A DNA stretch of 31,338 bases from Acidimicrobiia bacterium (GCA_022824605.1 JAJDZO010000028.1:1-31338), one strand, 5' to 3'; numbered from the stretch's first letter, positions 7,779-24,669 are shown. A program made the numbers and translations. Notes: a model not told the origin generated them from the sequence alone.

Positions 7779-9203
7779 TTGGGAACACCGACTCCGGCCT
7801 ACTCCATCACGATCAAGGTGTCGCTGGGCAACCGTCCCGGAACACTGGGCCGTTTCGCCACCGCTATCGGTGACGCGGGAGGCAACATCGCCGCGATCCC
7901 CGGCTTCGAGGCCAAGGGTCCGGTCATCATGCGCGAGATCGACGTGCTCGCCGAGTCTGTCGACCACGCCCGTCACATAGTTGCCGCTGTCAGCGACCTC
8001 GACGGCGTCACCGTGCTCGACTGGTGGGACCGCACGTTCCGGCTTCATGAGGGCGGAAAGATTGAGGTCAACGCCCTGTGCTCGGTCGGTGACGCCCACG
8101 ATCTGGCCATGGCGTACACGCCCGGGGTGGCTCGCGTGTGCAACGCGATCCATCGGGAGCCGATGCTGCGGCACACCCACACGATGGTCAAGAACATCGT
8201 GGCCATAGTCACCGACGGCACGGCCGTTCTCGGGCTCGGAGACATCGGTCCGGCCGCCGCCCTGCCCGTCATGGAAGGCAAGGCCCTGCTGTTCAAGGAG
8301 TTCGGAGGGGTCGACGCTTTCCCGGTCTGCCTCGACGTGGCCACTCCCGACGAACTGGTCGAGACCGTCGTGCGGATGTCGCCGTCGTTCGGTGGCATCA
8401 ACCTCGAGGACATAGCTGCGCCCGCGGCTTTCGAGATCGAAGAGAGGCTCATCGAGGCGCTCGACATTCCGGTCTTTCACGACGACCAGCACGGCACGGC
8501 CATCGTCACCACGGCTGCACTCTGGAATGCTCTCAAGATCGTCGACAAACGGATCGATGACATCTCGGTTGTCGTTTCGGGCACCGGCGCGGCCGGTCTG
8601 GCGGTGGCAAAGATGCTTCACGCCGCGGGTGTAGCGGAGATTGTCGGCGTTGACCGAGTCGGTGCCATCCATGCCGGTCGAGATGATCTGAACTCTGCCA
8701 AGCAGTGGTTCGTTCACAACGCCAACGCAGGAGGCAAGACTGGATCGCTCTCAGAAGTGATGAGCGGCGCGGATGCATTCGTCGGCCTTTCGGCGCCTGG
8801 ACTGCTGAGCGCCGATGATGTGCGGTCCATGGCCCGTGACCCGATCGTGTTTGCAATGGCCAACCCCGATCCGGAGATACGTCCCGAGGAGGTCGACGGC
8901 CTCGCGGCGGTAATGGCCACCGGAAGGTCCGACTTTCCCAACCAGATCAACAACGTCTTGGCCTTCCCAGGCGTGTTCCGCGGGGCGCTCGATGCCGGTG
9001 CGACCTGCATTACTGAACGGATGAAGGCCGTGGCCGCGGAAGCCATCGCCGAAGTGATCGACGACGAGGATCTCGATCCCAGCTACATCGTGCCATCGGT
9101 GTTCGACAGAAGGGTCGCCTCCCGGGTGGCGAGCGCGGTGGCGGCCTGCGCCGTCGCTGAGGGCTGCGTGCGTCCCGACGCCCCGCCGATCCGCTCCGAC
9201 TGA
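7779..9203 (+). CDS. NAD(P)-dependent malic enzyme with N-terminal ACT domain
   Basis: ACT-like N-terminus (NRPGTLGRF); AYTPGVA, VTDGTAVLGLGDIG, NLEDI, FHDDQHGT, GTGAAG, GRSDFPNQINN. Confidence 0.93.
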   Translation: MGTPTPAYSITIKVSLGNRPGTLGRFATAIGDAGGNIAAIPGFEAKGPVIMREIDVLAESVDHARHIVAAVSDLDGVTVLDWWDRTFRLHEGGKIEVNALCSVGDAHDLAMAYTPGVARVCNAIHREPMLRHTHTMVKNIVAIVTDGTAVLGLGDIGPAAALPVMEGKALLFKEFGGVDAFPVCLDVATPDELVETVVRMSPSFGGINLEDIAAPAAFEIEERLIEALDIPVFHDDQHGTAIVTTAALWNALKIVDKRIDDISVVVSGTGAAGLAVAKMLHAAGVAEIVGVDRVGAIHAGRDDLNSAKQWFVHNANAGGKTGSLSEVMSGADAFVGLSAPGLLSADDVRSMARDPIVFAMANPDPEIRPEEVDGLAAVMATGRSDFPNQINNVLAFPGVFRGALDAGATCITERMKAVAAEAIAEVIDDEDLDPSYIVPSVFDRRVASRVASAVAACAVAEGCVRPDAPPIRSD

Positions 9204-9253
9204 TCCCGACGCGCCTTGCGACCCGGTCTCAGGCGGCGTCGAGTTCGGCTGCG

Positions 9254-13874: not shown

Positions 13875-14245
13875 CAGTCCTGCTCGAGGATGGCCCACAG
13901 GCCGTGTTCGTGGAGCCGGTACACGTCGAATTCGGCCTTCTCGCGCTGTCCCGACGCCACCACCGCCCTGCCCTCGGTGTGGACCTGCATCATCAGCCGG
14001 TGAGCCTTCTGCTGCGAATAGCCGAACAGTTTGCGGAACACGTAGGTGACATACGACATCAGGTTGACCGGATCGTCGAGCACGATCACTTTCCACGGTG
14101 AGTCGGGCCTCCGATCGGCAACGTCCACCGGATCCTTCACCGGCGACGTGACCGGTGCAGAGGCCGAGCTTGCGAGACCGTGGGCAGCGGCGCTGTGACT
14201 TGGGCGGCCCGTGAGCGAAGCGAACAAGAGCGGGCGTGACCTCAT
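13874..14245 (-). CDS. clpS: Clp protease adaptor ClpS
   Basis: [46 protein letters not shown]; ATG overlaps ctaA TGA; start could be a later GTG. Confidence 0.92.
14204..14234. repeat. 31-bp REP-like element
   Basis: GCGGCCCGTGAGCGAAGCGAACAAGAGCGGG; 30/31 identical to 23728-23758. Confidence 0.85.
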
Positions 14246-15186
14246 GGCGCCGCCGCCGCACCCACGTTGGCGGCTGAGTTGAGCCGCGGCGAGCTTGCCG
14301 CGGTGACCGCCGGATCGTGGGCGGCCTTGACTATCGCTATCCAGGTGATCGACGCCAGGGTCACATGCACTCCCACCAGCAGCACGGGCACGCCGGTGAA
14401 GTACTGCGTGTAGCCGACGACGCCCTGCACGACGAGCAGCATCGCGATCCGGCCCATCCGAACGTGCCCAGCCGAGTCCGCGGCCCGCAACCGCCACCAC
14501 GTCCACACCACCATCCCTAGCAGCGCCAGCGCGACGATGCTGTGGATGCGGGTGACCTCGCGCACCAGCAACGGAAGTCGCTCGGCCCGGGTGTCGCCGG
14601 CATGGGGCCCCGCCCCGGTGACCAGGGTGCCGGTGACCAGCAGCACCCCGCCGACCGCGAGCACGGCCCACGGCATCAGCCGGGCCATGGCGTCGCCTCG
14701 CCTTTCAGCGGGGGTCGAGCCGTCGGGACTGCCGGTGGTGCCGGGGGCCTCGATGTCGTGGCGGGCTCTGACGTCCAGCACTGCCGCGTTCCACAGCAGC
14801 ACCATCGACAACAGGAAGTGCCCCATGGTGAAGCGGGGATCGAGTTCCGTCTTGACCAGCAGCGCTCCCAGCCCGACCTGGGCCAGCACCCCCGCAACCA
14901 GGCCGAGCGACAGCGCGATGAGGTCGACGCGCCGCGGCCGGCGCCGCCACGAGCCCAGCACCGCCGCTATCACCGCTACGGCCACGACCCCGGTGAAGAG
15001 GCGGTTCACGAACTCCACCATCGCGTGGTACTCGAGGTCGGCGACGAAGCGGTCCTCCGAGCAGGTGGGCCAGTCCTCACAGCCCAGACCCGAACCGGTG
15101 AGGCGCACCGACACGCCGGTCACGACGATGGCCGCGAGCGCCCACAAAGCGAACCGGGTGAGCCGGGTGTAGGCCGACGGTGCCAC
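14242..15186 (-). CDS. ctaA: Heme A synthase (COX15/CtaA)
   Basis: [47 protein letters not shown]; start taken at GTG 15186. Confidence 0.92.
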
Positions 15187-15271
15187 AGGTCGAGGGTAGA
15201 GCGAAATCGGCGGCACGAGATTCCGCACCAAGCCTGTCCTATGGGCGGTCAAATGTCCTAGCCTTCCCGGC

Positions 15272-16180
15272 GTGACCGGAACCGTGACCGGCGAGGTACG
15301 CGCCCCTCGCCGAGCCCGTGCCGTGGCCTTCGTGGCCCTCACCAAGCCCCGGATTGTTGAACTGCTGCTGGTCACCACCGTCCCGTCGATGATCCTGGCC
15401 GAAGGGGGCCTGCCGTCGGTGTGGCTGATCGCGGCCACCTTGGTCGGCGGAGCGATGTCGGCCGGCGGCGCCAACGCATTGAACATGTACGTCGACCGAG
15501 ACATCGACCGGCTCATGCACCGCACCCGCAACCGACCTCTGGTCACCGGAGCCGTTCGCGACACCGAGGCGATCGTGTTCGCGACGACCCTCACGGCCGG
15601 CTCCTTCGTGTGGCTGTGGGCCTTCGTGAACCTGCTCTCGGCGGCGCTGGCCACGGCCGCGGCTGCGTTCTACGTGTTCGTCTATTCGCTGTGGCTCAAA
15701 CGCACCTCCATCCGCAACATCGTGATCGGCGGCGCGGCCGGGGCTGTGCCGACGCTGGTGGGCTGGACCGCGGTCACCGGTTCGCTCGACTGGCCTCCGG
15801 TAGTGCTGTTCGCGGTGATCTTCTACTGGACTCCGCCCCACTTCTGGGCTCTGGCGATCCGCTACCGCAGCGACTATCAGGCCGCCGACGTCCCCATGCT
15901 TCCGGCGGTGTCAGGACTGCGGCCCACCGCTCGCCGCATCTTCGCCTACACGGTGGTGCTGGTGGCGTTCACGTTCCTGCTGGTGCCGGTGGCCGCAATG
16001 GGCGCCTTCTATCTGGTGGCCGCGGCCGTCAGCGGGGCCGGCTTCGTGGGCCTGGCACTCGACGTGCTGCGCCGGCCCGACGCCACCCGGGCGATGCGGT
16101 TGTTCGGCTGGTCCAACGCTTACGTGACGCTGCTGTTCGGCGCAGTCGCGGCCGACGTGCTCCTCCGTAACGGGTTCTAG
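15272..16180 (+). CDS. ctaB: Protoheme IX farnesyltransferase (heme O synthase)
   Basis: LTKPRIV, DRDIDRLMHRTRNRPL, NIVIGGAAG, WTPPHFWAL, DYQAADVPMLP. Confidence 0.96.
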   Translation: MTGTVTGEVRAPRRARAVAFVALTKPRIVELLLVTTVPSMILAEGGLPSVWLIAATLVGGAMSAGGANALNMYVDRDIDRLMHRTRNRPLVTGAVRDTEAIVFATTLTAGSFVWLWAFVNLLSAALATAAAAFYVFVYSLWLKRTSIRNIVIGGAAGAVPTLVGWTAVTGSLDWPPVVLFAVIFYWTPPHFWALAIRYRSDYQAADVPMLPAVSGLRPTARRIFAYTVVLVAFTFLLVPVAAMGAFYLVAAAVSGAGFVGLALDVLRRPDATRAMRLFGWSNAYVTLLFGAVAADVLLRNGF

Positions 16181-16296: not shown

Positions 16297-17844
16297 ATGA
16301 CGCTGACCGAACCGGCCATCGCGGACTCCGAGGCCTCCCTCGCGGCCGGCGGCGCTGACGCGCCGTCGGCGTCGACGCAACCGGTGGCGACCCACCCGGT
16401 TTTGGCCCAGCCCTTCGTCACCAGCGATGCGACGACGGTCGGCCGTCTGTTCGTGGTGGCCTCGCTGCTGCTGGCCCTGGGCACTTCGGTGATCGGTGCG
16501 CTGCTCTCGTTCGGACGCACCGAGGCGGTCGACCCGGCGGACATGTTCGGCGGCCTCAACGCCTATTTCCGCATGTGGACCCTGTACCGGGTGTCGTTCA
16601 TGCTGCTGGTGGTGCTGCCCCTGCTGCTCGGCGTGGCCATGGCGGTCGTGCCCTCGCAGGTGGGGGCGGGCAACCTCGCTTTCCCCCGGGCTGCGCTGGC
16701 GTCGTTCTGGACGTGGAAGATCGGTGCGCTGATCGTCGTGGTGTCGGTGTTCGCCGGCGGGGGCTGGGGCGCCGTCGACGGCGTGACCGGCAACGAGAAC
16801 GACGCCATCGCGCTCACGCTGCTCGGCACCGCCATGGTGATCGTGGCGCTGCTCGTCGGCGCAGTGTGTGTGGCCACCACCGTGATCTCGCTGCGCCAGA
16901 CAGGCATGAGCCTGCTGAACGTTCCGCCCTTCGCGTGGTCGATGCTGGTGTCTGCCGCGGTGTGGCTGTTCACGCTGCCCGTCGCCATCGCCAACATCGT
17001 GGTGATCTACGCCGACCTGCGGGGCCGGCCCGCGATCGCCTTCGGCCGCGCCGAGGGCCCCGACATCTGGCAGCAACTCGACTGGCTGGTGGAGCAGCCG
17101 GCCGTCTACCTCATGGCCGTGCCGGTGCTCGGCATAGTCTTCGAGTCCGTCGGTGCCGCGGTCGGAGGTCGAACGAGTCGTCCCGAGATTTTCGCCGTCG
17201 TCGTGGGCCTGTTCGGACTGCTGGCCGTGGGCGGTTGGGCCCAGGACTACTTCACCGCTCCCCAGGACCTGCGAGACGGTCTGGTTTATGTGGCCTTCGG
17301 GCTGGCTGCGGTGCTTCCGATAGTGGCGCTGGCCGGCGGCGCCGGCGAACTGGTGCTGCGGGGCACAGCCACGCCGGAGCGGCTCCTCGACGCCCGCACG
17401 GTTGGTGCAGGCTCGGCTCTCAAGCTTCTCGGCGCGGCCGCGCTGGTGGGCGCCCTGCGCGTTGTCGAGCCCTTTGATCTGCTTGAGACGGCGGCCACTT
17501 GGGCTGTCTTCCACGGGGTGGTCGTCGCAGGCCTCGTGGCCGGGGTGACTGCGCACCTGACTTGGCCGGACAGGCTGCTGACCGGCTCAATCTCGCAGAT
17601 CCTCGGTCGGGGCACCGTCGTGCTTCTGATGGTGGGCGGCGGACTGCTCGTGGTCACCGATCTGATCTCGGGGTTCGCGTCCGACGATCAGGACCTGATG
17701 GCCCTCGCGCTGGACGTCAACGTGACGTTCAACGTGATCAACCTCATCGGATCGGTTCTGGTAGTGGCCGGTCTGGCTGCGGCTCTGGCTGCGATGGCAA
17801 CCGCTCGGCGAACCGCCACCGTGACGGGGCGTAGAGCGTCATGA
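16297..17844 (+). CDS. Degenerate cytochrome c oxidase subunit I paralog lacking most metal ligands
   Basis: Aligns by eye with CtaD (TLYRV/TMHGV, GNLAFPR/RDVAFPR, WLVEQPAVY/WIFGHPEVY, GWAQDYF/VWAHHMF, WAVFH/VAHFH); intact 515-aa ORF. Confidence 0.85.
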   Translation: MTLTEPAIADSEASLAAGGADAPSASTQPVATHPVLAQPFVTSDATTVGRLFVVASLLLALGTSVIGALLSFGRTEAVDPADMFGGLNAYFRMWTLYRVSFMLLVVLPLLLGVAMAVVPSQVGAGNLAFPRAALASFWTWKIGALIVVVSVFAGGGWGAVDGVTGNENDAIALTLLGTAMVIVALLVGAVCVATTVISLRQTGMSLLNVPPFAWSMLVSAAVWLFTLPVAIANIVVIYADLRGRPAIAFGRAEGPDIWQQLDWLVEQPAVYLMAVPVLGIVFESVGAAVGGRTSRPEIFAVVVGLFGLLAVGGWAQDYFTAPQDLRDGLVYVAFGLAAVLPIVALAGGAGELVLRGTATPERLLDARTVGAGSALKLLGAAALVGALRVVEPFDLLETAATWAVFHGVVVAGLVAGVTAHLTWPDRLLTGSISQILGRGTVVLLMVGGGLLVVTDLISGFASDDQDLMALALDVNVTFNVINLIGSVLVVAGLAAALAAMATARRTATVTGRRAS

Positions 17845-17891
17845 TCGCATCCGCCTGCCCAGCCGCCGTGACGGGGCGTAGAGCGTCGTGA
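17841..17891 (+). CDS. Putative bridging micro-ORF MIASACPAAVTGRRAS (16 aa)
   Basis: Between 22-bp direct repeats at 17819 and 17866; ATGA overlap upstream, GTGA overlap downstream. Confidence 0.4.
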   Translation: MIASACPAAVTGRRAS

Positions 17892-18472
17892 GAACGACCG
17901 CTTTGCCGGTGCCCGAGGCGACTCGGCCCCGTACGGTCGTGGTCGGTGCCCTGCTGGGCGCCGCCGCCGCATTCATCGTCTTCGCCGGCCTCGTGTCGGT
18001 GTACGTCCAGCAGCGTCAGGCCGCTCGGGCCGCGGGCACCGAATGGTTCCCGGAGGGCAGCGTCGAACTCGGTCCGGCCGGGATGATGATGATGACGCTG
18101 GCGCTGTCGATGGTGACCGTGCAGTGGGCGGTTCAGGCCGCCCGCACCGAGGATCGGCCCCACGGGTTCATCGCGCTGGGAGTCACCCTGCTGTTCGGCG
18201 CGTCGGTCGTCAACCAGTTCTGGTTCGTGTACGCCGACACCGGCTTCGCCATCGACGGCGGGCGGGCCGAGCTGTTGTTCTACGCGGTGACCGGCTCGTT
18301 CGTCGCCATGCTGATCATCGGCATGGCCATGATGGTGGTCGCCACCGTGCGTTCGCTGATGGGGCCCTTCGGGCGAGAACTGGCCCACGGCGTGCAAGCG
18401 GCCGCCGCCTACTGGCACATGTGCGTGCTGAGCTACTTCATCGTCTGGTACGTCGTGTTCATCACCAAGTAG
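17888..18472 (+). CDS. Divergent cytochrome c oxidase subunit III-like protein
   Basis: Five hydrophobic segments colinear with CtaE; YWHMCV vs YWHFVD; the SE and GFHGxH motifs are absent. Confidence 0.8.
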   Translation: MRTTALPVPEATRPRTVVVGALLGAAAAFIVFAGLVSVYVQQRQAARAAGTEWFPEGSVELGPAGMMMMTLALSMVTVQWAVQAARTEDRPHGFIALGVTLLFGASVVNQFWFVYADTGFAIDGGRAELLFYAVTGSFVAMLIIGMAMMVVATVRSLMGPFGRELAHGVQAAAAYWHMCVLSYFIVWYVVFITK

Positions 18473-18479
18473 GAAGCTC

Positions 18480-19277
18480 GTGTTCACCACCGGATTCAAG
18501 TTCTTCTTCGGACTGTTCGCAGCGTTCTGCGTGGCCGCGCTCGCCTACGGCTACACCACCGGCGGCAACCATGTCGGGCCGCTCTCGCTGGGCTGGAAGG
18601 GCGGCGTCGGCGACCACATCGGTTACGGCGTGCTCGTGGCGCTGGCCGCGGCCTCGTTGACGGTCAGCTTGGTGCTGGTGTCGTTCCGCGACGCCGACGC
18701 GGCCGCTCAGGCCCATCTGCAGAACCTGGCCGAAGTGATGACCGACCAACCGGTGACCCCCAGCTTCTGGCCGGTGGTGGCCTCCTTCGGTGTGGGAGCG
18801 ACCGCGGTGGGGCTGGTGCTGCACCCCATGGTGTTCGTGCTCGGGCTGACCCTCGTCACGCTGGCGCTGGTGGAGTGGACCATGGACGCCTGGGCTGATC
18901 GTGCCACCGGCGACATCGAGGCCAACCGGGAACTGCGCAACCGGATCATGGCCCCCATCGAGATCCCCGTGGTCGGAGCGCTCGCCGTCGGCGTGGTGGT
19001 GCTGGCGGCCTCGCGGATCCTGCTGACCGTGTCACAGCTCGAGGCGGTGACCGTTGCCGGTGTGGTGTCCGCCCTCATCCTGGGCGGCGCCTGGGTGTAC
19101 GCAACCCGGCCCGGACTCGGCCGCCGGCTGATGCGAACCCTGGGGGTGGTCGGCGCGTTGCTGCTGCTGATCGGCGGAGTGCTGGCCGCGGTCGCAGGCG
19201 AGCGAGACTTCGCACACCATGAACACGAGACGCACGAAGAACACGGCGAGCCGACCGGTGGTGATCACGGTGGCTGA
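18480..19277 (+). CDS. Membrane protein resembling actinobacterial oxidase subunit CtaF, with C-terminal extension
   Basis: N-terminal F..F.....YG helix and PSFWP motif followed by two helices, similar from memory to mycobacterial CtaF (SPHSWWP); His-rich tail. Confidence 0.55.
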   Translation: MFTTGFKFFFGLFAAFCVAALAYGYTTGGNHVGPLSLGWKGGVGDHIGYGVLVALAAASLTVSLVLVSFRDADAAAQAHLQNLAEVMTDQPVTPSFWPVVASFGVGATAVGLVLHPMVFVLGLTLVTLALVEWTMDAWADRATGDIEANRELRNRIMAPIEIPVVGALAVGVVVLAASRILLTVSQLEAVTVAGVVSALILGGAWVYATRPGLGRRLMRTLGVVGALLLLIGGVLAAVAGERDFAHHEHETHEEHGEPTGGDHGG

Positions 19278-19278
19278 T

Positions 19279-20505
19279 ATGCGAAGGACCGCCGGGCGAC
19301 TCCTGGCCGCTGCGCTGACGCTGGCCGGCGTGGCCGTGGCCACCGGATGCGCATCCGACGCCGAACTCGACACGTTCGCTCCTCAGGGCCCGATCGCCAA
19401 AGAACTACACAGCCGCGGCGTGCTGCCGGTGTTCTGGATCGCGGCGGTGGTGTTCGTGGGCATCACCATCGCCATGGTCTGGCTCATCTGGAAGAACCGG
19501 GTCCGCAACTACGACGGCGACGACGAATGGCCTGCGCAGACCCACGGCCATGTGCCGCTGGAGGTGGGCTGGACCGTGGGGTTCCTGCTCACCATGATCG
19601 CGGTGGCGGGCATCATGCTGTGGTCGCTGCCCACCGTGGACGCCACCGAGGACAACACCATGGTCGTCAGCATCGACGACCGCAGCGTCACCTGGGAACC
19701 GACCGTCGTGGTGGTGGGCAACCAGTGGTGGTGGGAGTTCCGCTACTACTTCTCGGACCAGGTGGACCTCGCCGACCTGCGGGCCCACGGCGACGCCAAG
19801 ACCCTGCCCCCCGCCGACATCGTGACCTCCGGTCAGATGGTGATCCCAACCGGCGAGGAGGTCGAGCTGATCATCACGTCGCGTGACGTGATCCACTCGT
19901 TCTGGATCCCGGCGCTCAACGGCAAGCGCGACGCGGTTCCCAATCGCTTCTCACCATGGAAGATCGAGGCCTCCGATCCGGGCTTCTACTTCGGGCAGTG
20001 CACCGAGTTCTGCGGCCTGTCACACTCGCGCATGAGGATGCAGGCGGTGGCGCTGACCCCGGCCGACTTCCAGACGTGGGTGGACCGCACCAGCGCCGAC
20101 GCGGTGGAGCCGACCGATCCCGAGGCGCTGGCGGGCATGGAGGTGTTCGCGGGCATCTGCACCTCGTGCCATGTGGTGGAAGGAGTCAACGACGATGTGT
20201 TCGAGAGAGCGGATCAGGCCTCCGGGGCCGCTCCCAACCTGACCCACTTCGCCAACCGCAGCACCTTCGCGGGCGGGATCCTCAACACCTACAACGCCGA
20301 CGGGTCGCTCAACCGCACCGACCTCGAGGCGTGGCTGCGAGACCCCGGCGCCCTCAAGGAGAACTACACGGTGCCCGGCGAGCAGTACCGGGGCATGCCC
20401 GACCTCGACCTGAGCGAACAGCAGATCGACGATCTCGTGGCCTACCTTTCAGGCCTGGGCGCCAAGCCCGCCGGCTGGATAATCGAAGCGACCCAGGTGG
20501 AGTGA
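19279..20505 (+). CDS. ctaC: Cytochrome c oxidase subunit II with fused cytochrome c (caa3 type), lipoprotein
   Basis: Lipobox VATGC; CuA ligands DVIHSFW and CTEFCGLSHSRM; CTSCH heme c motif and GMP axial Met. Confidence 0.96.
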   Translation: MRRTAGRLLAAALTLAGVAVATGCASDAELDTFAPQGPIAKELHSRGVLPVFWIAAVVFVGITIAMVWLIWKNRVRNYDGDDEWPAQTHGHVPLEVGWTVGFLLTMIAVAGIMLWSLPTVDATEDNTMVVSIDDRSVTWEPTVVVVGNQWWWEFRYYFSDQVDLADLRAHGDAKTLPPADIVTSGQMVIPTGEEVELIITSRDVIHSFWIPALNGKRDAVPNRFSPWKIEASDPGFYFGQCTEFCGLSHSRMRMQAVALTPADFQTWVDRTSADAVEPTDPEALAGMEVFAGICTSCHVVEGVNDDVFERADQASGAAPNLTHFANRSTFAGGILNTYNADGSLNRTDLEAWLRDPGALKENYTVPGEQYRGMPDLDLSEQQIDDLVAYLSGLGAKPAGWIIEATQVE

Positions 20506-20506
20506 A

Positions 20507-22498
20507 ATGGCCATAACTGAGCAGCCACCGCTCGAACTAGGCCCCGGCGACGCCGTCCGCTACGCCGAGAAGCCTCTCGGCGTGTTCACCCGTCCCCAAC
20601 AGGGTCGGGGATGGCGCGACTGGCTCAGCACGGTCGACCACAAGCGCATCGGCATCCTGTACGGCGCCTCGGCCATGTTCTTCTTCCTCGTCGGTGGCAT
20701 CGAAGCGCTGCTGATCCGCCTTCAGTTGGCCGCCCCCGAGGGCTCGGTGCTCAGCGCCGACGTCTACAACCAGGTGTACACGATGCACGGCGTCACCATG
20801 GTGTTCCTGTTCATCATGCCGCTGGCCGCCGCTTTCGCGAACTACTTCATCCCGCTGCAGATCGGCGCCCGAGACGTGGCCTTCCCCCGCCTCAACGCGC
20901 TTTCGTTCTGGATCTGGCTGTCGGGCGCCATCTTCTTGAACACGTCGTGGATCGTGGGCGGCGGCGGGGCCGACTGCGGCTGGTTCTGCTACTCCACCAA
21001 CAGCGGTGTGGCCTTCTCGCCCAGCCACGGCGTGGACTTCTACGCCATCGGCCTGCAGATACTGGGCATCGCCTCGCTGGTGTCGTCGGTGAACCTGATC
21101 GTGACCTGCCTGAACATGCGAGCGCCCGGCATGACGCTGATGCGGATGCCGGTGCTCACCTGGATGCTGCTGATCACCCAGTTCCTGTTGCTGTTCGCGC
21201 TGCCGGTGATCACCGTGGCGTTGTTCCTGCTGATGTTCGACCGGCTCTTCGACGCCCAGTTCTTCAATCCTGACGCGGGCGCCGATCCGCTGCTGTGGCA
21301 GCACTTATTCTGGATATTCGGCCATCCCGAGGTGTACATCATCATCCTGCCCGCGTTCGGGGTGGTGTCGGAGATCATCCCCACCTTCAGCCGCAAGCCG
21401 CTGTTCGGCTACGAGTTCATGGTGTTCTCGGGCATAGCCATCGGCTTCATGGGCTGGGGGGTGTGGGCCCACCACATGTTCGTGTCGGGCATAGGCCCCA
21501 TCTCGGTGGCCGCCTTCTCGTTGTCGACCATGTTCATCGCAGTGCCGACGGGGGTGAAGGTTCTCAATTGGCTTGCCACGATGTGGGGCGGGAAGTTGAG
21601 ATTCACGGTGGCCATGAAGTTCGCGGTGGCCACGGTGGCCATGTTCACCATCGGCGGTCTGTCCGGCGTGACCCACTCGGTGGCCCCGGCCGACACCCAG
21701 CAGACCGACACCTACTACATCGTGGCCCACTTCCACTATGTGATCTTCGGTGGCGGCGTGCTCGGCCTGTTCGCGGGCATGTACTTCTGGTGGCCGAAGA
21801 TCTGGGGGCACTTCCTCAACGAGCGGATCGGCAACTGGCATTTCTGGATCATGCTGGTGGGCTTCAACCTCACCTTCGGACCGATGCACATTCTGGGCCT
21901 GCAGGGCATGTCGCGCCGGATCGACACCTACGCGCGGGGATACGGCTTCGAGTTCTGGAACATGGCGGCCACGGTCGGATCGCTGCTGATCGCGGTGGCG
22001 GTGCTGCTGTTCATCTGGAACGTGGTCAAGTCCAAACGCGACGCCCCCCATCTGCCGCTGCCGGGGCCGGACCCGTGGGACAGCCGCTCCCTCGAATGGT
22101 CGATCCCGTCGCCGGTGCCGGTCCACAACTTCGACACCGTGCCGCAGGTCCACAGCCGCGACGACTGGTGGCACACCAAGTACGCCGAGAACGACGAGGG
22201 CAAGGTGGTGCGGGTGGCCACCGCCGAAGAGGCCGCCCAGACCGGCGAGGCGACCGGCGTACATCTGCCGTCGCCGTCGTTCTGGCCGTTGGCGGTGGCC
22301 GTGGGCCTGCCGTTGATCGGCTACGGCCTGATCTTCAGCCTCTGGTTGGCGCTGATAGGCGCGCTGGTGACGATCGCGTCGCTCTACTCGTGGGCCATGG
22401 AACCAGTAGACGACCCCGACGCCACCCACGACCACCACGACGAAGACCACGAAGACGACAAGAACGAGGACGACCAAGCCGGAGGTCACGACTCATGA
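20507..22498 (+). CDS. ctaD: Cytochrome c oxidase subunit I, A1 type
   Basis: All six His ligands (TMHG, GHPEVY, WAHHM, AHFHY), D-channel DVAFPRLN, K-channel PTGVK; two extra C-terminal helices (PSPSFWP). Confidence 0.98.
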   Translation: MAITEQPPLELGPGDAVRYAEKPLGVFTRPQQGRGWRDWLSTVDHKRIGILYGASAMFFFLVGGIEALLIRLQLAAPEGSVLSADVYNQVYTMHGVTMVFLFIMPLAAAFANYFIPLQIGARDVAFPRLNALSFWIWLSGAIFLNTSWIVGGGGADCGWFCYSTNSGVAFSPSHGVDFYAIGLQILGIASLVSSVNLIVTCLNMRAPGMTLMRMPVLTWMLLITQFLLLFALPVITVALFLLMFDRLFDAQFFNPDAGADPLLWQHLFWIFGHPEVYIIILPAFGVVSEIIPTFSRKPLFGYEFMVFSGIAIGFMGWGVWAHHMFVSGIGPISVAAFSLSTMFIAVPTGVKVLNWLATMWGGKLRFTVAMKFAVATVAMFTIGGLSGVTHSVAPADTQQTDTYYIVAHFHYVIFGGGVLGLFAGMYFWWPKIWGHFLNERIGNWHFWIMLVGFNLTFGPMHILGLQGMSRRIDTYARGYGFEFWNMAATVGSLLIAVAVLLFIWNVVKSKRDAPHLPLPGPDPWDSRSLEWSIPSPVPVHNFDTVPQVHSRDDWWHTKYAENDEGKVVRVATAEEAAQTGEATGVHLPSPSFWPLAVAVGLPLIGYGLIFSLWLALIGALVTIASLYSWAMEPVDDPDATHDHHDEDHEDDKNEDDQAGGHDS

Positions 22499-22596
22499 AC
22501 GCCGCCGCACTGACCGCACCCCGCGGCGAAAGGGGCGGCGCCGAGTGGCGGCGACCGGCGAGCAGGGCGAAGCGCGTGCGGGGGATCCAGCCATGA
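22495..22596 (+). CDS. Putative bridging micro-ORF (33 aa) containing a repeat-family fragment
   Basis: MNAAALTAPRGERGGAEWRRPASRAKRVRGIQP*; CATGA at both 22494 and 22592. Confidence 0.4.
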   Translation: MNAAALTAPRGERGGAEWRRPASRAKRVRGIQP

Positions 22597-23231
22597 GCGC
22601 GGAACCCCTGATGGCTGAGGTCGACCACGCAGTCGACGCCGACGGTCACGATCACGATCCTCACGCCACTACCACCGGCCTGTCGCACACCAAGCTGGCC
22701 ATGTGGGTGTTCCTGGGTTCGGAATGCCTGCTCTTCGGCGGGCTGATCTCCACCTACCTGCTGTACAAGACCCGCGGCAACGGCCGCACGCTGCCCACCG
22801 ACGTGTTCGACATCCCGTTCACGTCGGTGAGCTCGTTCGTGTTGCTGATGAGTTCGCTCACCATGGTTCTGGCCCTCTCAGCGGTGTCGCGCGGCGAACC
22901 GGAGGCCGGCCGCACCTGGCTGTTGGCCACGGCCCTGTTGGGCGGCGTGTTCGTCGGCGGGCAGGTATACGAGTTCACCGCATTCGTGCGTGAGGGGGTG
23001 GCCTTCACCACCAACCCGGCCAGCAGCGCCTTCTTCACCCTCACCGGCTTCCACGGCGTGCATGTGAGCCTCGGCATCGTGATGCTGATGTCGTTGTTCG
23101 TCGCCTCGCTGAAGGGCAAGCTCACTCAACGCAACTCCGAGACGGTTGAGATCGTCGGCCTCTACTGGCACTTCGTGGACATCGTGTGGATCTTCATCTT
23201 CACGGTGATCTACCTGATTCCCGCCGACTGA
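22593..23231 (+). CDS. ctaE: Cytochrome c oxidase subunit III
   Basis: WVFLGSECLLF, LTGFHGVHV, GLYWHFVDIVW. Confidence 0.96.
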   Translation: MSAEPLMAEVDHAVDADGHDHDPHATTTGLSHTKLAMWVFLGSECLLFGGLISTYLLYKTRGNGRTLPTDVFDIPFTSVSSFVLLMSSLTMVLALSAVSRGEPEAGRTWLLATALLGGVFVGGQVYEFTAFVREGVAFTTNPASSAFFTLTGFHGVHVSLGIVMLMSLFVASLKGKLTQRNSETVEIVGLYWHFVDIVWIFIFTVIYLIPAD

Positions 23232-23235
23232 CCCC

Positions 23236-23322
23236 ATGAGCAATACCCTCACATGACCGACACGATCCGATGACCGACCCCATTGCCATGAGCGACCCGA
23301 TCCGATGACCGACACCGTTGCC
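23236..23322 (+). repeat. Five degenerate 17-18-bp ATGA-initial tandem units encoding three chained micro-ORFs
   Basis: Units at 23236, 23253, 23270, 23288, 23305; ORFs MSNTLT*, MTDTIR*, MTDPIAMSDPIR*. Confidence 0.85.
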
Positions 23323-23658
23323 TACGATCATTCCGAAGCGGCTGCCACCGCCGGCGAGCACCATGACGAGGAGGGCCATTCCCACCCGTCGGACTGGGCC
23401 TACGTCAAGATCGCCATCGCTCTCGCCGTCATCACCGCGCTCGAGGTGTTCACCTACTTCGAGACGGTTCTCGACTGGGGCGTGGCGCTGGTGCCGTCGC
23501 TGATCTTCATGATGATCGTCAAGTTCTATTTGGTGGCCACCTGGTTCATGCACCTGCGCTTCGACAGCAAGCTGTTCGGCCGGATGTTCAGCGCCGGTCT
23601 GATCCTGGCTGTCGGCGTGTATCTGGTGACCCTGACGGTCTTCGAATTCTGGGTGTAG
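23305..23658 (+). CDS. Cytochrome c oxidase subunit IV (caa3/QoxD-like)
   Basis: Three helices; YVKIAIALAVITALE, K..LVA.WFMHLRFD motif. Confidence 0.9.
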   Translation: MTDTVAYDHSEAAATAGEHHDEEGHSHPSDWAYVKIAIALAVITALEVFTYFETVLDWGVALVPSLIFMMIVKFYLVATWFMHLRFDSKLFGRMFSAGLILAVGVYLVTLTVFEFWV

Positions 23659-23727
23659 CCCAGAGGCCGAGCGGGTGAACAGCATCCATGCGAGTCTCGC
23701 GACGAGTTCAGCGAGGCCGTGGCCCGA

Positions 23728-23758
23728 GCGGCCCGTGAGCGCAGCGAACAAGAGCGGG
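23728..23758. repeat. 31-bp REP-like element
   Basis: 30/31 identical to 14204-14234; ends 2 nt before ctaG ATG. Confidence 0.85.
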
Positions 23759-23760
23759 AC

Positions 23761-24669
23761 ATGGTGAGCGCGCTGGCCGCGACCGACGCCTGGCGCTTCC
23801 AGTTCCACCCGGAGGTGTGGCTGATGGTGGCCGCGGTGGTCGGCCTCGGCTTCTACGTGGTCCGTGTGGTGGCCCCGGTCGCCGCTCCGGCCGCAACGGA
23901 GGCCGTTGGTAGGCGCCAGCGGCTGTGCTTCGTCGCCGGTGTTGTGCTGCTTTGGGTGTCGGCGGACTGGCCCATGCACGACATCGCCGAGGAGTACCTC
24001 TACTCGGTGCACATGGTGCAGCACCTGCTCATCAGCTTCGTGGTGCCGCCGCTGCTGCTGATGGCTGTGCCTGAATGGCTGGCCCGGCTGATCCTGGTCG
24101 AGGATTCCCGCACGGCGAGGGTCATTCGCCGTCTGGTGCATCCGCTGGTGGCCGGGGTGGTCTTCAACGCGCTGCAGGGGTTGATGCACTGGAGCACTCT
24201 GGTGGAGTATTCGGTGCGCAGCGGCCCCTTCCACTACGCCATGCACCTGCTGATGTTCGCCAGCGCGCTGGCCATGTGGATGCCCGTGGTCGGACCGCTG
24301 CGGGAGCTGCACCTCTCGGAGCCGATGAAGATGGTGTACCTGTTCGCCATGTCGATCGTGCCGACCGTGCCGGCCGCCTGGCTCACCTTCGCGGAGGGCT
24401 CGGTCTACCCCGTCTACGACCACGCCCAACGGCTGTGGGGCATCTCGGTGACGGCCGATCAGCAGGCGGCCGGCGCGGTGATGAAGGTGCTGGGCGGCCT
24501 CTACCTGTGGACTCTCATAGCCATCCGGTTCTTCCGCTACTCGACCGCGCAGCGCCACGCCGACGCGGCCGAGCGACGCCGGCGCCTCGCGGCCGACACC
24601 ATCACCACCGCCGATGTGGAGGCCGAGTTCGAGCGACTGGGACCCCCGCCCACCGAACCCCGTCTCTAG
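23761..24669 (+). CDS. ctaG: caa3-type oxidase assembly factor CtaG
   Basis: WPMHDIAEEYLYSVHMVQHLL..PPLLL, HLLMF..A..MW.PV, DQQAAG..MK. Confidence 0.92.
   Translation: MVSALAATDAWRFQFHPEVWLMVAAVVGLGFYVVRVVAPVAAPAATEAVGRRQRLCFVAGVVLLWVSADWPMHDIAEEYLYSVHMVQHLLISFVVPPLLLMAVPEWLARLILVEDSRTARVIRRLVHPLVAGVVFNALQGLMHWSTLVEYSVRSGPFHYAMHLLMFASALAMWMPVVGPLRELHLSEPMKMVYLFAMSIVPTVPAAWLTFAEGSVYPVYDHAQRLWGISVTADQQAAGAVMKVLGGLYLWTLIAIRFFRYSTAQRHADAAERRRRLAADTITTADVEAEFERLGPPPTEPRL

What the first reader, a model, noticed from the sequence alone, without database searches (positions are those of the whole stretch)
16297..17844. Catalytically dead subunit I paralog kept intact beside a normal ctaD
Seen: a full 515-aa COX1-fold ORF in which, against CtaD in this window, the heme a His in TMHG is Tyr, the CuB His in GHPEVY is Gln, the CuB pair HH is QD, and the heme a3 His in HFH is Val; only the second His of HFH remains. 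D-channel Asp (to Asn), Asn (to Ala) and the HPEVY Glu (to Ala) are also lost. Established: these six His are invariant in heme-copper oxidases. Inference: it cannot reduce O2 or NO, yet has no stop or frameshift, so it may be a pseudoenzyme with a structural, assembly or regulatory role.
Basis: partly seen in the sequence, partly recalled or inferred. Interest (0 to 1): 0.85.

Follow-up and report, generated by a model that had tools for sequence, protein, structure and literature searches.

The report
Ligand-less shadow oxidase subunit I
This intact gene encodes a copy of the catalytic subunit of cytochrome c oxidase that has lost its haem and copper ligands; with the next two genes it forms a conserved, non-catalytic 'shadow' oxidase core that most Acidimicrobiales keep between the haem O synthase gene and their real oxidase genes, and I found no published account of its function.

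Summary
ORF 16297-17844 is a full-length, 12-helix COX1-fold protein (Pfam PF00115; AF2 pLDDT 92.8).

It is not a decaying duplicate. It belongs to a monophyletic family of more than 130 clusters at 50% identity. The ORF is intact in 109 of 111 loci, and dN/dS is about 0.28 against 0.12 for ctaD.

It always sits in the same operon slot: ctaB, cox1', cox3', X (CtaF-like), ctaC, ctaD, ctaE, ctaF, ctaG. A profile of X finds the module in 85 of 109 sampled genomes of the order, including Ilumatobacteraceae.

No alternative ligand set is conserved. The one surviving His (H406) is not kept across the family, so O2 or NO reduction is excluded.

The most likely role is a non-redox membrane subcomplex (I'-III'-IV') that partners the caa3 oxidase. 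The main rival is a biogenesis scaffold acting with CtaB, CtaA and CtaC. The sequence data cannot separate the two.

This scan has already reported the same trio on at least six other genomes. The nearest published thing is a ligand-less COX1-like gene beside ctaB in Acetobacter. I found no paper describing the Acidimicrobiales module.

The parts
14242..15200 (-). ctaA (haem A synthase), divergent from the operon; the upstream end is approximate because the longest ORF (to 15654) overlaps ctaB
   Evidence: PF02628 COX15-CtaA, E 2.5e-19; same position in relatives
15272..16180 (+). ctaB (haem O synthase), first gene of the + strand operon
   Evidence: PF01040, and NF003349 haem o synthase at 396 bits
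16297..17844 (+). cox1': the ligand-less paralogue of oxidase subunit I (the finding)
   Evidence: PF00115 full length; ligand substitutions; AF2 pLDDT 92.8; Foldseek TM 0.75-0.79 to A-type COX1
17888..18472 (+). cox3': divergent subunit III-like protein (194 aa)
   Evidence: PF00510, E 4.5e-11; NF050119 aa3_CtaE_Actin at 43 bits, far below its cut-off; co-conserved in every locus; dN/dS 0.18
18480..19277 (+). X: 7-helix membrane protein. The N-terminal 4 TM are CtaF (actinobacterial subunit IV)-like. The C-terminal 3 TM are homologous to the anchor of a membrane-bound cupredoxin found in caa3 operons of other Acidimicrobiia orders. It has an acidic, His-rich tail.
   Evidence: No Pfam hit itself. 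An orthologue hits PF12270 at E 0.01. hhalign 93%, E 2.8e-7 to the CtaF-like tail of CtaD. Foldseek top hits are 7q21_F and 8hcr_H, both weak. Profile hits to cupredoxin anchors. dN/dS 0.23.
19219..20505 (+). ctaC: genuine subunit II with a fused cytochrome c domain (caa3 type). The true start is probably downstream of the overlap with X.
   Evidence: PF00116, PF00034, TIGR02866 above cut-off
20507..22498 (+). ctaD: genuine subunit I with all six His, fused to a CtaF-like C-terminal domain
   Evidence: PF00115 at 510 bits, TIGR02891 at 681 bits (above cut-off), PF12270 at residues 575-632
22545..23231 (+). ctaE: genuine subunit III
   Evidence: PF00510, E 1.2e-18
23305..23658 (+). Bacillus-type subunit IV (COX4_pro)
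   Evidence: PF03626, E 2.7e-8
23719..24669 (+). ctaG (Caa3_CtaG copper-insertion assembly factor)
   Evidence: PF09678, E 6.6e-41

Best explanation
cox1' is a haem- and copper-free paralogue of oxidase subunit I. With cox3' and X (CtaF-like) it is made from the same operon as the real caa3 oxidase, and the three assemble into a non-redox copy of the oxidase membrane core (I'-III'-IV', with no subunit II of its own). This shadow core does no chemistry and pumps no protons through the classical channels. It most likely acts as a stable structural partner of the real caa3 oxidase, as the inactive half of a pseudo-dimer or as a docking or spacer element of a respiratory supercomplex. Shown: the fold, the loss of ligands and channels, purifying selection, fixed synteny, monophyly, and the absence of any new conserved polar site. 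Inferred: that the three proteins bind each other, and that they bind the real oxidase.
For: The fold is kept with high confidence (pLDDT 92.8, TM about 0.78 to A-type COX1). All catalytic features are lost family-wide. 53 of the 75 best-conserved columns carry the same residue as CtaD, that is, fold and interface motifs such as AFPR, R200, W263 and the N-terminal DHK. The family-specific conserved residues form no ligand-like cluster, which is what a purely structural protein would show. All three shadow genes are under purifying selection (dN/dS 0.28, 0.18, 0.23). The ORF is intact in 109 of 111 loci. The trio mirrors the real core: I, III and a CtaF-like element. The slot directly in front of ctaC-ctaD-ctaE is invariant in more than 85 loci, down to 25-34% identity, often with overlapping stop and start codons. 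No intergenic terminator is predicted. Residual branch rates of cox1' co-vary with cox3' and X (rho 0.39 each). The module does not substitute for Surf1, which is present in every module-bearing family sampled.
Against: There is no direct evidence of protein, complex or stoichiometry. Other Acidimicrobiia orders run an orthologous caa3 operon without the module, so it is not needed for oxidase function as such. cox1' rates co-vary with ctaB and ctaC (0.34, 0.33) but not with ctaD or ctaE (0.08, -0.01), which fits an assembly role at least as well; gene adjacency confounds this test. cox1' is the fastest-evolving gene of the operon, and its C-terminal half (TM8-12) is weakly conserved. One family member lies outside any cta operon, next to a narG-like gene.
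Confidence: 0.5

Rival explanations
1. Biogenesis scaffold. The shadow core is an apo-oxidase mimic that docks haem O synthase CtaB (and CtaA) and/or subunit II. It stabilises them or templates cofactor hand-over to nascent CtaD, and it is not part of the mature enzyme.
For: cox1' always directly follows ctaB, with ctaA divergent. In module-less orders no ctaB or ctaA was found within about 8 kb of the caa3 operon. cox1' residual rates co-vary with ctaB (0.34) and ctaC (0.33) but not with ctaD or ctaE. Published precedent: Acetobacter keeps a ligand-less COX1-like gene in a cluster with ctaB, and the authors propose that it stabilises CtaB (PMC10715153, citing Matsutani 2014). Earlier scan notes report ligand-less COX1 joined to haem O synthase genes in other phyla (not re-tested here).
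Against: The canonical factors Surf1, Caa3_CtaG, CtaA and CtaB are all present alongside the module. The rate co-variation is confounded by gene adjacency and possible recombination blocks. A chaperone would not obviously need its own III' and IV' subunits.
Confidence: 0.27
2. Residual one-haem protein. In this clade Tyr97 and His406 occupy the two axial positions of the former low-spin haem a site. They could bind a single haem with His/Tyr ligation, as in hemophores, giving a haem-carrier or redox-sensing role.
For: Tyr97 and His406 align with the two haem a ligands. About 80 close relatives share the Y...H pattern. 15 of 116 cluster representatives keep His at both positions, and 24 of 116 have His or Tyr at both.
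Against: 53 of 116 representatives have neither ligand. Close sister clades have Asn at the second site. The Arg pair that holds the haem propionates is deleted. So haem binding cannot be the family's conserved function.
Confidence: 0.07
3. Neofunctionalised membrane module that is independent of the oxidase, for example a channel, transporter or sensor built on the COX1 scaffold.
For: The fold keeps three pore-like helix bundles. One member sits beside ScdA/hemerythrin and a narG-like gene, outside a cta operon.
Against: The D- and K-channel polar residues are replaced by Ala, Pro or Gln. No new conserved polar chain or charged intramembrane cluster appears. The operon linkage to cta genes is almost universal.
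Confidence: 0.08
4. Non-functional relic (pseudogene in slow decay).
For: It is the fastest-evolving gene of the operon (39-82% identity against 75-96% for ctaD). One frameshifted copy was seen in L139, a long-read MAG.
Against: dN/dS is 0.28, far below 1. The full-length ORF is intact in 109 of 111 loci spanning divergence down to 25% identity. The N-terminus and structural motifs are conserved. The AF2 model is confident.
Confidence: 0.02

Closest known systems
A-family haem-copper oxidase subunit I (CtaD/CoxA), e.g. M. smegmatis 6ADQ/6HWH, C. glutamicum 7Q21, bovine 1OCC, P. denitrificans 1AR1
   Same: The 12-TM fold (Foldseek TM 0.75-0.79). Best sequence hits are actinobacterial CtaD at E about 1e-23. 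It keeps structural motifs (N-terminal DHK in most members, AFPR, the NMR-PGM-type loop, W/P/G positions). It is accompanied by subunit III-like and CtaF-like partners.
   Different: No conserved haem a, haem a3 or CuB ligands. D-channel Asp, Asn and Glu and K-channel Lys are lost. The propionate-binding Arg pair is deleted. It has no subunit II of its own. It scores 136 bits against the 671-bit cut-off of TIGR02891.
Ligand-less 'deranged' COX1-like protein retained next to ctaB in Acetobacter (Matsutani et al. 2014, BBA 1837:1810, as described in Degli Esposti et al. 2023, PMC10715153)
   Same: A COX1 homologue lacking the metal-binding residues, kept intact and clustered with the haem O synthase gene. 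The authors propose a structural (CtaB-stabilising) role.
   Different: It is in a different phylum and probably arose independently; common descent was not tested here. Acetobacter has lost the real cytochrome c oxidase, whereas here the shadow gene sits in the same operon as a complete caa3 oxidase and comes with its own III' and IV'-like partners.
The same 'shadow/ghost oxidase' trio noted earlier in this scan on other Acidimicrobiia genomes (e1-2640373, e1-4924308, e1-2630064, e1-4906929, e1-4989889, e1-2983544)
   Same: Same three genes, same operon slot, same conclusion that they are ligand-less and under selection. I re-derived this independently here.
   Different: Those are AI notes on other DNA, not publications. 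New here, to my knowledge: the X-anchor/cupredoxin link, the Surf1 test, the rate co-variation and the phylogeny.
Degenerate paralogous subunits of other respiratory complexes (CydB or CydA' of cytochrome bd, cf. bioRxiv 10.1101/2021.01.16.426971; ActF versus ActC of alternative complex III; the latter from my own knowledge)
   Same: A duplicated core subunit that has lost cofactor sites but is retained as a structural half of the complex. This is the working analogy for the best explanation.
   Different: In those cases the degenerate copy is a proven stoichiometric subunit. Here association with the real oxidase is only inferred.

Membership tests
Haem-copper oxidoreductase superfamily, subunit I (PF00115 fold) | 12-TM COX1 fold and sequence homology | tested here: met
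   PF00115 at 106 bits, full length. AF2 pLDDT 92.8. Foldseek E 6.5e-15, TM 0.78 to 8d4t_N and 1ar1_A.
Catalytically active haem-copper oxidase / NO reductase | Six invariant His: two for the low-spin haem, one for the high-spin haem, three for CuB/FeB | tested here: not met
   The pattern here is Y,Q,Q,D,V,H. Among 232 family members none has more than 3 of the 6, and 101 have none.
Catalytically active haem-copper oxidase / NO reductase | Proton pathways (D-channel Asp/Asn/Glu, K-channel Lys) or equivalents | tested here: not met
   Asp -> Asn/Thr/Ser/Ala; Asn -> Ala (211/232); Glu -> Ala/Gln; Lys -> Pro (193/232).
Catalytically active haem-copper oxidase / NO reductase | A cognate subunit II (CuA or quinol site) encoded with it | tested here: not met
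   The module is I'-III'-X only. The single ctaC belongs to the real oxidase. The own genome has only two PF00115 genes.
NCBIfam equivalog CtaD_CoxA (TIGR02891) / cyt_aa3_Actin (NF050116) | Score above the curated cut-off | tested here: not met
   135.8 against 670.75 bits; 106 against 880 bits.
Pseudoenzyme (dead paralogue retained by selection) | Homologue of an enzyme with its catalytic residues lost | tested here: met
Pseudoenzyme (dead paralogue retained by selection) | Purifying selection and long-term retention | tested here: met
   dN/dS median 0.28 (IQR 0.24-0.40) over 793 pairs. 109 of 111 ORFs intact. Monophyletic family with UFBoot 100. More than 130 clusters at 50% identity with E < 1e-30.
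Pseudoenzyme (dead paralogue retained by selection) | The protein is actually made | tested here: inconclusive
   Metatranscriptome contigs of 85-95% identical relatives cover parts of cox1', X and the X-ctaC junction. DNA carry-over cannot be excluded, and no proteomics is available.
Acetobacter-type ligand-less COX1-like gene linked to ctaB | Ligand-less COX1 homologue adjacent to the haem O synthase gene | tested here: met
   cox1' starts 117 nt after the ctaB stop; the same holds in every locus examined.
Acetobacter-type ligand-less COX1-like gene linked to ctaB | Common descent with the Acetobacter protein | not tested
   No Acetobacter sequence was fetched. The shadow clade branches among actinobacterial CtaD, so an independent origin is likely.

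The most novel reading that the evidence does not exclude
The I'-III'-X shadow core is a dedicated, cofactor-free mimic of the oxidase core with a specific mechanistic job. One option is that it is the obligatory inactive half of a heterodimeric caa3 oxidase or supercomplex. The other is that it is a docking platform that holds CtaB/CtaA and apo-subunit II, so that haem A and copper are handed to nascent CtaD. Either would be a new principle of respiratory-complex architecture or biogenesis, and it would be conserved across most of an order that includes cultured Ilumatobacter relatives.
Probability: 0.25. Interest if true: 0.85.

Novelty: new variant of a known kind. Interest (0 to 1): 0.62.

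Why it matters
Haem-copper oxidases are among the best-studied membrane enzymes, and their six metal-ligand histidines are treated as defining. Here a whole cofactor-less copy of the oxidase core (I', III', IV'-like) has been kept under selection in the oxidase operon across most Acidimicrobiales. These bacteria are abundant in seawater, sponges, soil and activated sludge.

There are practical consequences. Genome annotation calls these genes 'cytochrome c oxidase subunit I' or 'cbb3-type oxidase subunit I', which inflates counts of terminal oxidases in metabolic reconstructions.

There are also conceptual ones. If the shadow core is a structural half of the enzyme or an assembly template, it gives a natural system for asking what the protein scaffold of an oxidase does apart from its chemistry. 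Independent ligand-less COX1 genes beside ctaB occur in Acetobacter, which suggests a recurrent solution and not an oddity.

Tried and rejected
1. Survey with P0001 at E <= 1e-40. It gave 16 of 201 genomes and wrongly suggested absence from Ilumatobacteraceae. A search with CtaD showed the divergent trio there, so I replaced the survey with an X-profile search.

2. RNA evidence. Only assembled metatranscriptome contigs of relatives at 85-95% identity were available. They are patchy, and DNA carry-over is not excluded, so this is at best a hint of transcription.

3. Surf1 complementarity. Surf1 is present in every module-bearing family, so the idea that the module replaces Surf1 is rejected.

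4. Evolutionary rate co-variation. cox1' co-varies with cox3', X, ctaB and ctaC but not with ctaD or ctaE. Gene adjacency and possible recombination blocks confound this. The positive control is weak (ctaD-ctaE 0.16). I treat the result as exploratory.

5. Fold of X. The model is mediocre (pLDDT 69.7). The Foldseek hits to CtaF chains are top-ranked but weak (E 0.14-0.39), so they are supportive only together with hhalign and the Pfam hit on an orthologue.

6. ESM Atlas. It returned only generic COX1 clusters.

7. Literature. I found no description of the Acidimicrobiia module, only the Acetobacter precedent.

8. Complex prediction of I'+III'+X with or without CtaC/CtaD was not possible with the single-chain tool.

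Full report
**Observation**

ORF 16297-17844 (+) is open for 515 codons. It matches Pfam PF00115 (COX1) over the whole profile (2-435 of 436, 106 bits). It falls far below the curated cut-offs of every NCBIfam subunit I equivalog, for example 136 against 671 bits for TIGR02891.

The genuine CtaD lies in the same window at 20507-22498. It scores 510 bits on PF00115 and is above the TIGR02891 cut-off. BLASTP between the two gives 24% identity and E 3e-29.
- Haem a His -> Tyr97.
- CuB His -> Gln267.
- The HPEVY Glu -> Ala269.
- The CuB His pair -> Gln316 and Asp317.
- Haem a3 His -> Val.
- The second His of HFH is kept as His406.
- D-channel Asp -> Asn and Asn -> Ala.

A 232-sequence MAFFT alignment gives the same columns. 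It adds K-channel Lys -> Pro and deletion of the Arg pair that binds the haem propionates.

**Real protein, not a relic**

A word-indexed search found 187 relatives, nearly all 510-590 aa. An exhaustive HMMER scan of 1.84 billion cluster representatives found 136 clusters with E < 1e-30, at 25-53% identity.

The AF2 model built on 134 family sequences is confident (pLDDT 92.8, pTM 0.93). Its best structural matches are all A-type subunit I chains, with TM 0.75-0.79.

In 111 loci from genomes and metagenomes the gene is an intact single-frame ORF of at least 470 aa in 109. One exception is cut by a contig end. The other is frameshifted, in a long-read MAG.

Pairwise Nei-Gojobori dN/dS was computed over 43 loci, using pairs with dS between 0.2 and 1.5:

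| Gene | dN/dS |
|---|---|
| cox1' | 0.28 (IQR 0.24-0.40) |
| cox3' | 0.18 |
| X | 0.23 |
| ctaD | 0.12 |
| ctaE | 0.11 |
| ctaC | 0.21 |
| ctaB | 0.15 |

cox1' is the fastest-evolving gene of the operon, at 39-82% identity to the window's protein where ctaD is 75-96%. It is nevertheless clearly under purifying selection.

**No alternative metal site**

Across the 232 members none has more than three of the six His, and 101 have none. I then took the 116 representatives of 50% clusters:
- 53 have neither haem a axial ligand.
- 15 keep His at both positions.
- 24 have His or Tyr at both.
- The window's protein has only 3 His in total, against 23 in CtaD.

75 columns are at least 75% conserved in these representatives. 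53 of them carry the same residue as CtaD: the AFPR loop, R200, W138, W263, W423, Q121 and the N-terminal D-H-K. The 22 family-specific ones are mostly hydrophobic or Gly/Pro. The only polar ones are R50, S215, R292 and Gln316, which sits at the former CuB site.

So there is no new ligand-like cluster and no replacement polar channel. TM1-7 are better conserved than TM8-12. His406, the 'remaining' His, is specific to the window's clade; sister clades have Asn, Ser, Ala or Gly.

**Context: a three-gene shadow core**

The + strand operon reads as follows:

| Gene | Coordinates | Identity |
|---|---|---|
| ctaB | 15272-16180 | haem O synthase |
| cox1' | 16297-17844 | the finding |
| cox3' | 17888-18472 | PF00510, E 4.5e-11 |
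| X | 18480-19277 | no Pfam hit |
| ctaC | 19219-20505 | subunit II with cytochrome c domain |
| ctaD | 20507-22498 | fused to a CtaF-like tail |
| ctaE | 22545-23231 | subunit III |
| COX4_pro | 23305-23658 | Bacillus-type subunit IV |
| ctaG | 23719-24669 | Caa3_CtaG |

ctaA lies divergently upstream. No intergenic terminator is predicted.

X has seven predicted helices. Three lines of evidence make its first half CtaF-like:
- Its TM3-4 align with the PF12270-positive tail of CtaD by profile-profile comparison (93% probability, E 2.8e-7).
- An orthologue hits PF12270 directly, at E 0.01.
- The two top Foldseek hits of its model are a 143-residue and a 139-residue chain of the C. glutamicum (7q21_F) and M. 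tuberculosis (8hcr_H) bcc-aa3 supercomplex structures. I take these to be CtaF; the tool gave only the entry titles. The hits are weak and the model is mediocre.

The trio therefore copies subunits I, III and the actinobacterial IV of the oxidase, without a subunit II. The own genome has only two PF00115 genes, the real one and the shadow one.

**Distribution and synteny**

All 80 genome loci found with the family alignment show the identical gene order wherever the contig allows. They come from Candidatus Aldehydirespirator and other Acidimicrobiales MAGs, many from sponges and seawater. The order also holds for members at only 25-34% identity to P0001, often with overlapping stop and start codons.

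A first survey at E <= 1e-40 undercounted (16 of 201). Ilumatobacteraceae genomes carry a very divergent trio in the same slot.

A profile of X then found full-length X in 85 of 109 sampled genomes of the window's order, in 21 of 27 families. It was not found in one family sampled 17 times. The overall tally of that call (160 of 401) includes one unpublished genome, G275, among the partial matches in other orders.

Other orders of the class have an orthologous ctaC-ctaD-ctaE-COX4_pro-ctaG operon without the module. No ctaB or ctaA was found within about 8 kb of it.

**Origin**

I built an ML tree (LG+F+G4, 507 columns, 77 sequences). Loci from three unpublished genomes (L148, L149, L160) were excluded.

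The 33 shadow sequences form one clade with UFBoot 100 on a long stem. This includes the Ilumatobacter-type member and the narG-adjacent member. The clade is sister to a large clade of genuine actinobacterial CtaD and is not nested inside the Acidimicrobiales ctaD clade. That indicates a single, old origin. Long-branch effects make the exact attachment uncertain.

**How it most likely works**

- **Shown:** it cannot bind the binuclear centre or conduct protons by the D or K routes. It keeps the scaffold motifs of COX1. It is co-conserved and co-encoded with III' and IV'-like partners in the caa3 operon.
- **Inferred (best, about 0.5):** the three form a non-redox membrane subcomplex that is a stable structural partner of the caa3 oxidase or its supercomplex. 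This would be analogous to degenerate duplicated subunits of other respiratory complexes.
- **Main rival (about 0.27):** a biogenesis scaffold working with CtaB, CtaA and CtaC.

The rival has real support. The gene is invariably adjacent to ctaB. An exploratory rate co-variation analysis shows cox1' tracking cox3' (rho 0.39), X (0.39), ctaB (0.34) and ctaC (0.33), but not ctaD (0.08) or ctaE (-0.01). Gene adjacency confounds that result. There is also a published Acetobacter case of a ligand-less COX1-like gene retained with ctaB, for which the authors propose a role in stabilising CtaB (PMC10715153, citing Matsutani 2014).

Against a simple chaperone substitution, Surf1 is present in every module-bearing family sampled, including this genome.

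Minor rivals:
- A single His/Tyr-ligated haem in this clade (0.07).
- An oxidase-independent membrane function (0.08).
- A relic (0.02).

**Expression**

Assembled contigs from two metatranscriptomes, from 85-95% identical relatives, cover parts of cox1', cox3' and X. One contig bridges X and ctaC. DNA carry-over cannot be excluded, so this is only a hint.

**Novelty**

The held literature contains no description of this Acidimicrobiales module. Databases name these proteins 'cytochrome c oxidase subunit I', 'cbb3-type cytochrome c oxidase subunit I' or 'hypothetical'.

The general phenomenon of a ligand-less COX1-like gene next to ctaB is published for Acetobacter. This scan has already reported the same trio on at least six other genomes; I re-derived the core claims independently.

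I rate it a new variant of a known kind. It is interesting to bioenergeticists, but for this scan it is a repeat finding.

Noticed in passing
window 18900-19277 (C-terminal half of X); L109:8156-8944 (-), L112:~8100-9235 (+): The last three helices of X (motif NRELRNR..P.E.P...SRILL) are homologous to the membrane anchor of a plastocyanin/sulfocyanin-like cupredoxin protein. That protein is encoded right after ctaG (once before ctaC) in caa3 operons of other Acidimicrobiia orders (about 70 genomes, E 1e-9 to 1e-16 per genome). X itself has no cupredoxin domain, so X looks like a CtaF-like module fused to a cupredoxin anchor that has lost its copper domain.
   Followed up: partly
L114:6737-7864 (+) and other Ilumatobacteraceae loci (L106-L108): In Ilumatobacteraceae X is about 375 aa long. 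It carries a C-terminal extension of about 110-130 aa after the last helix, starting with a conserved Cys, and this extension has no Pfam match. Its nature is unknown.
   Followed up: no
L018:923-2590 (Logan contig SRR22388045_438223): A member of the ligand-less family (pattern G,P,Q,-,L,G at the six His sites) lies outside any cta operon. It sits between a ScdA/hemerythrin gene and a gene whose N-terminus looks like Tat-exported NarG. The contig is only 3.8 kb.
   Followed up: partly
window 20507-22498; L142:11415-13465: The genuine CtaD is fused to an actinobacterial CtaF-like (PF12270) C-terminal domain. In one relative (L142) the two parts are called as separate, overlapping genes. The operon also encodes a Bacillus-type subunit IV (COX4_pro), so the real enzyme has two different 'subunit IV' elements.
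   Followed up: no
L143:10338-10904: In one divergent relative a thioredoxin/AhpC-TSA-like gene is inserted between X and ctaC. It may be a TlpA/Sco-type CuA maturation factor.
   Followed up: no
L139:3001-4683: This is the only locus where cox1' matches in three reading frames. It is either a real frameshifted copy or indel errors of a long-read MAG assembly.
   Followed up: no
window 16297-17844 versus family alignment A2: The window's clade has lost the C-terminal DPWxGxTLEWATxSPP..NF tail after TM12. 75-88% of family representatives, and genuine CtaD, keep it.
   Followed up: partly
loci L001, L017, L141-L143 upstream of ctaA: ClpS and a DUF2017 gene lie directly downstream of ctaA on the minus strand in several distant relatives. 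This is a conserved neighbourhood of unknown relevance.
   Followed up: no
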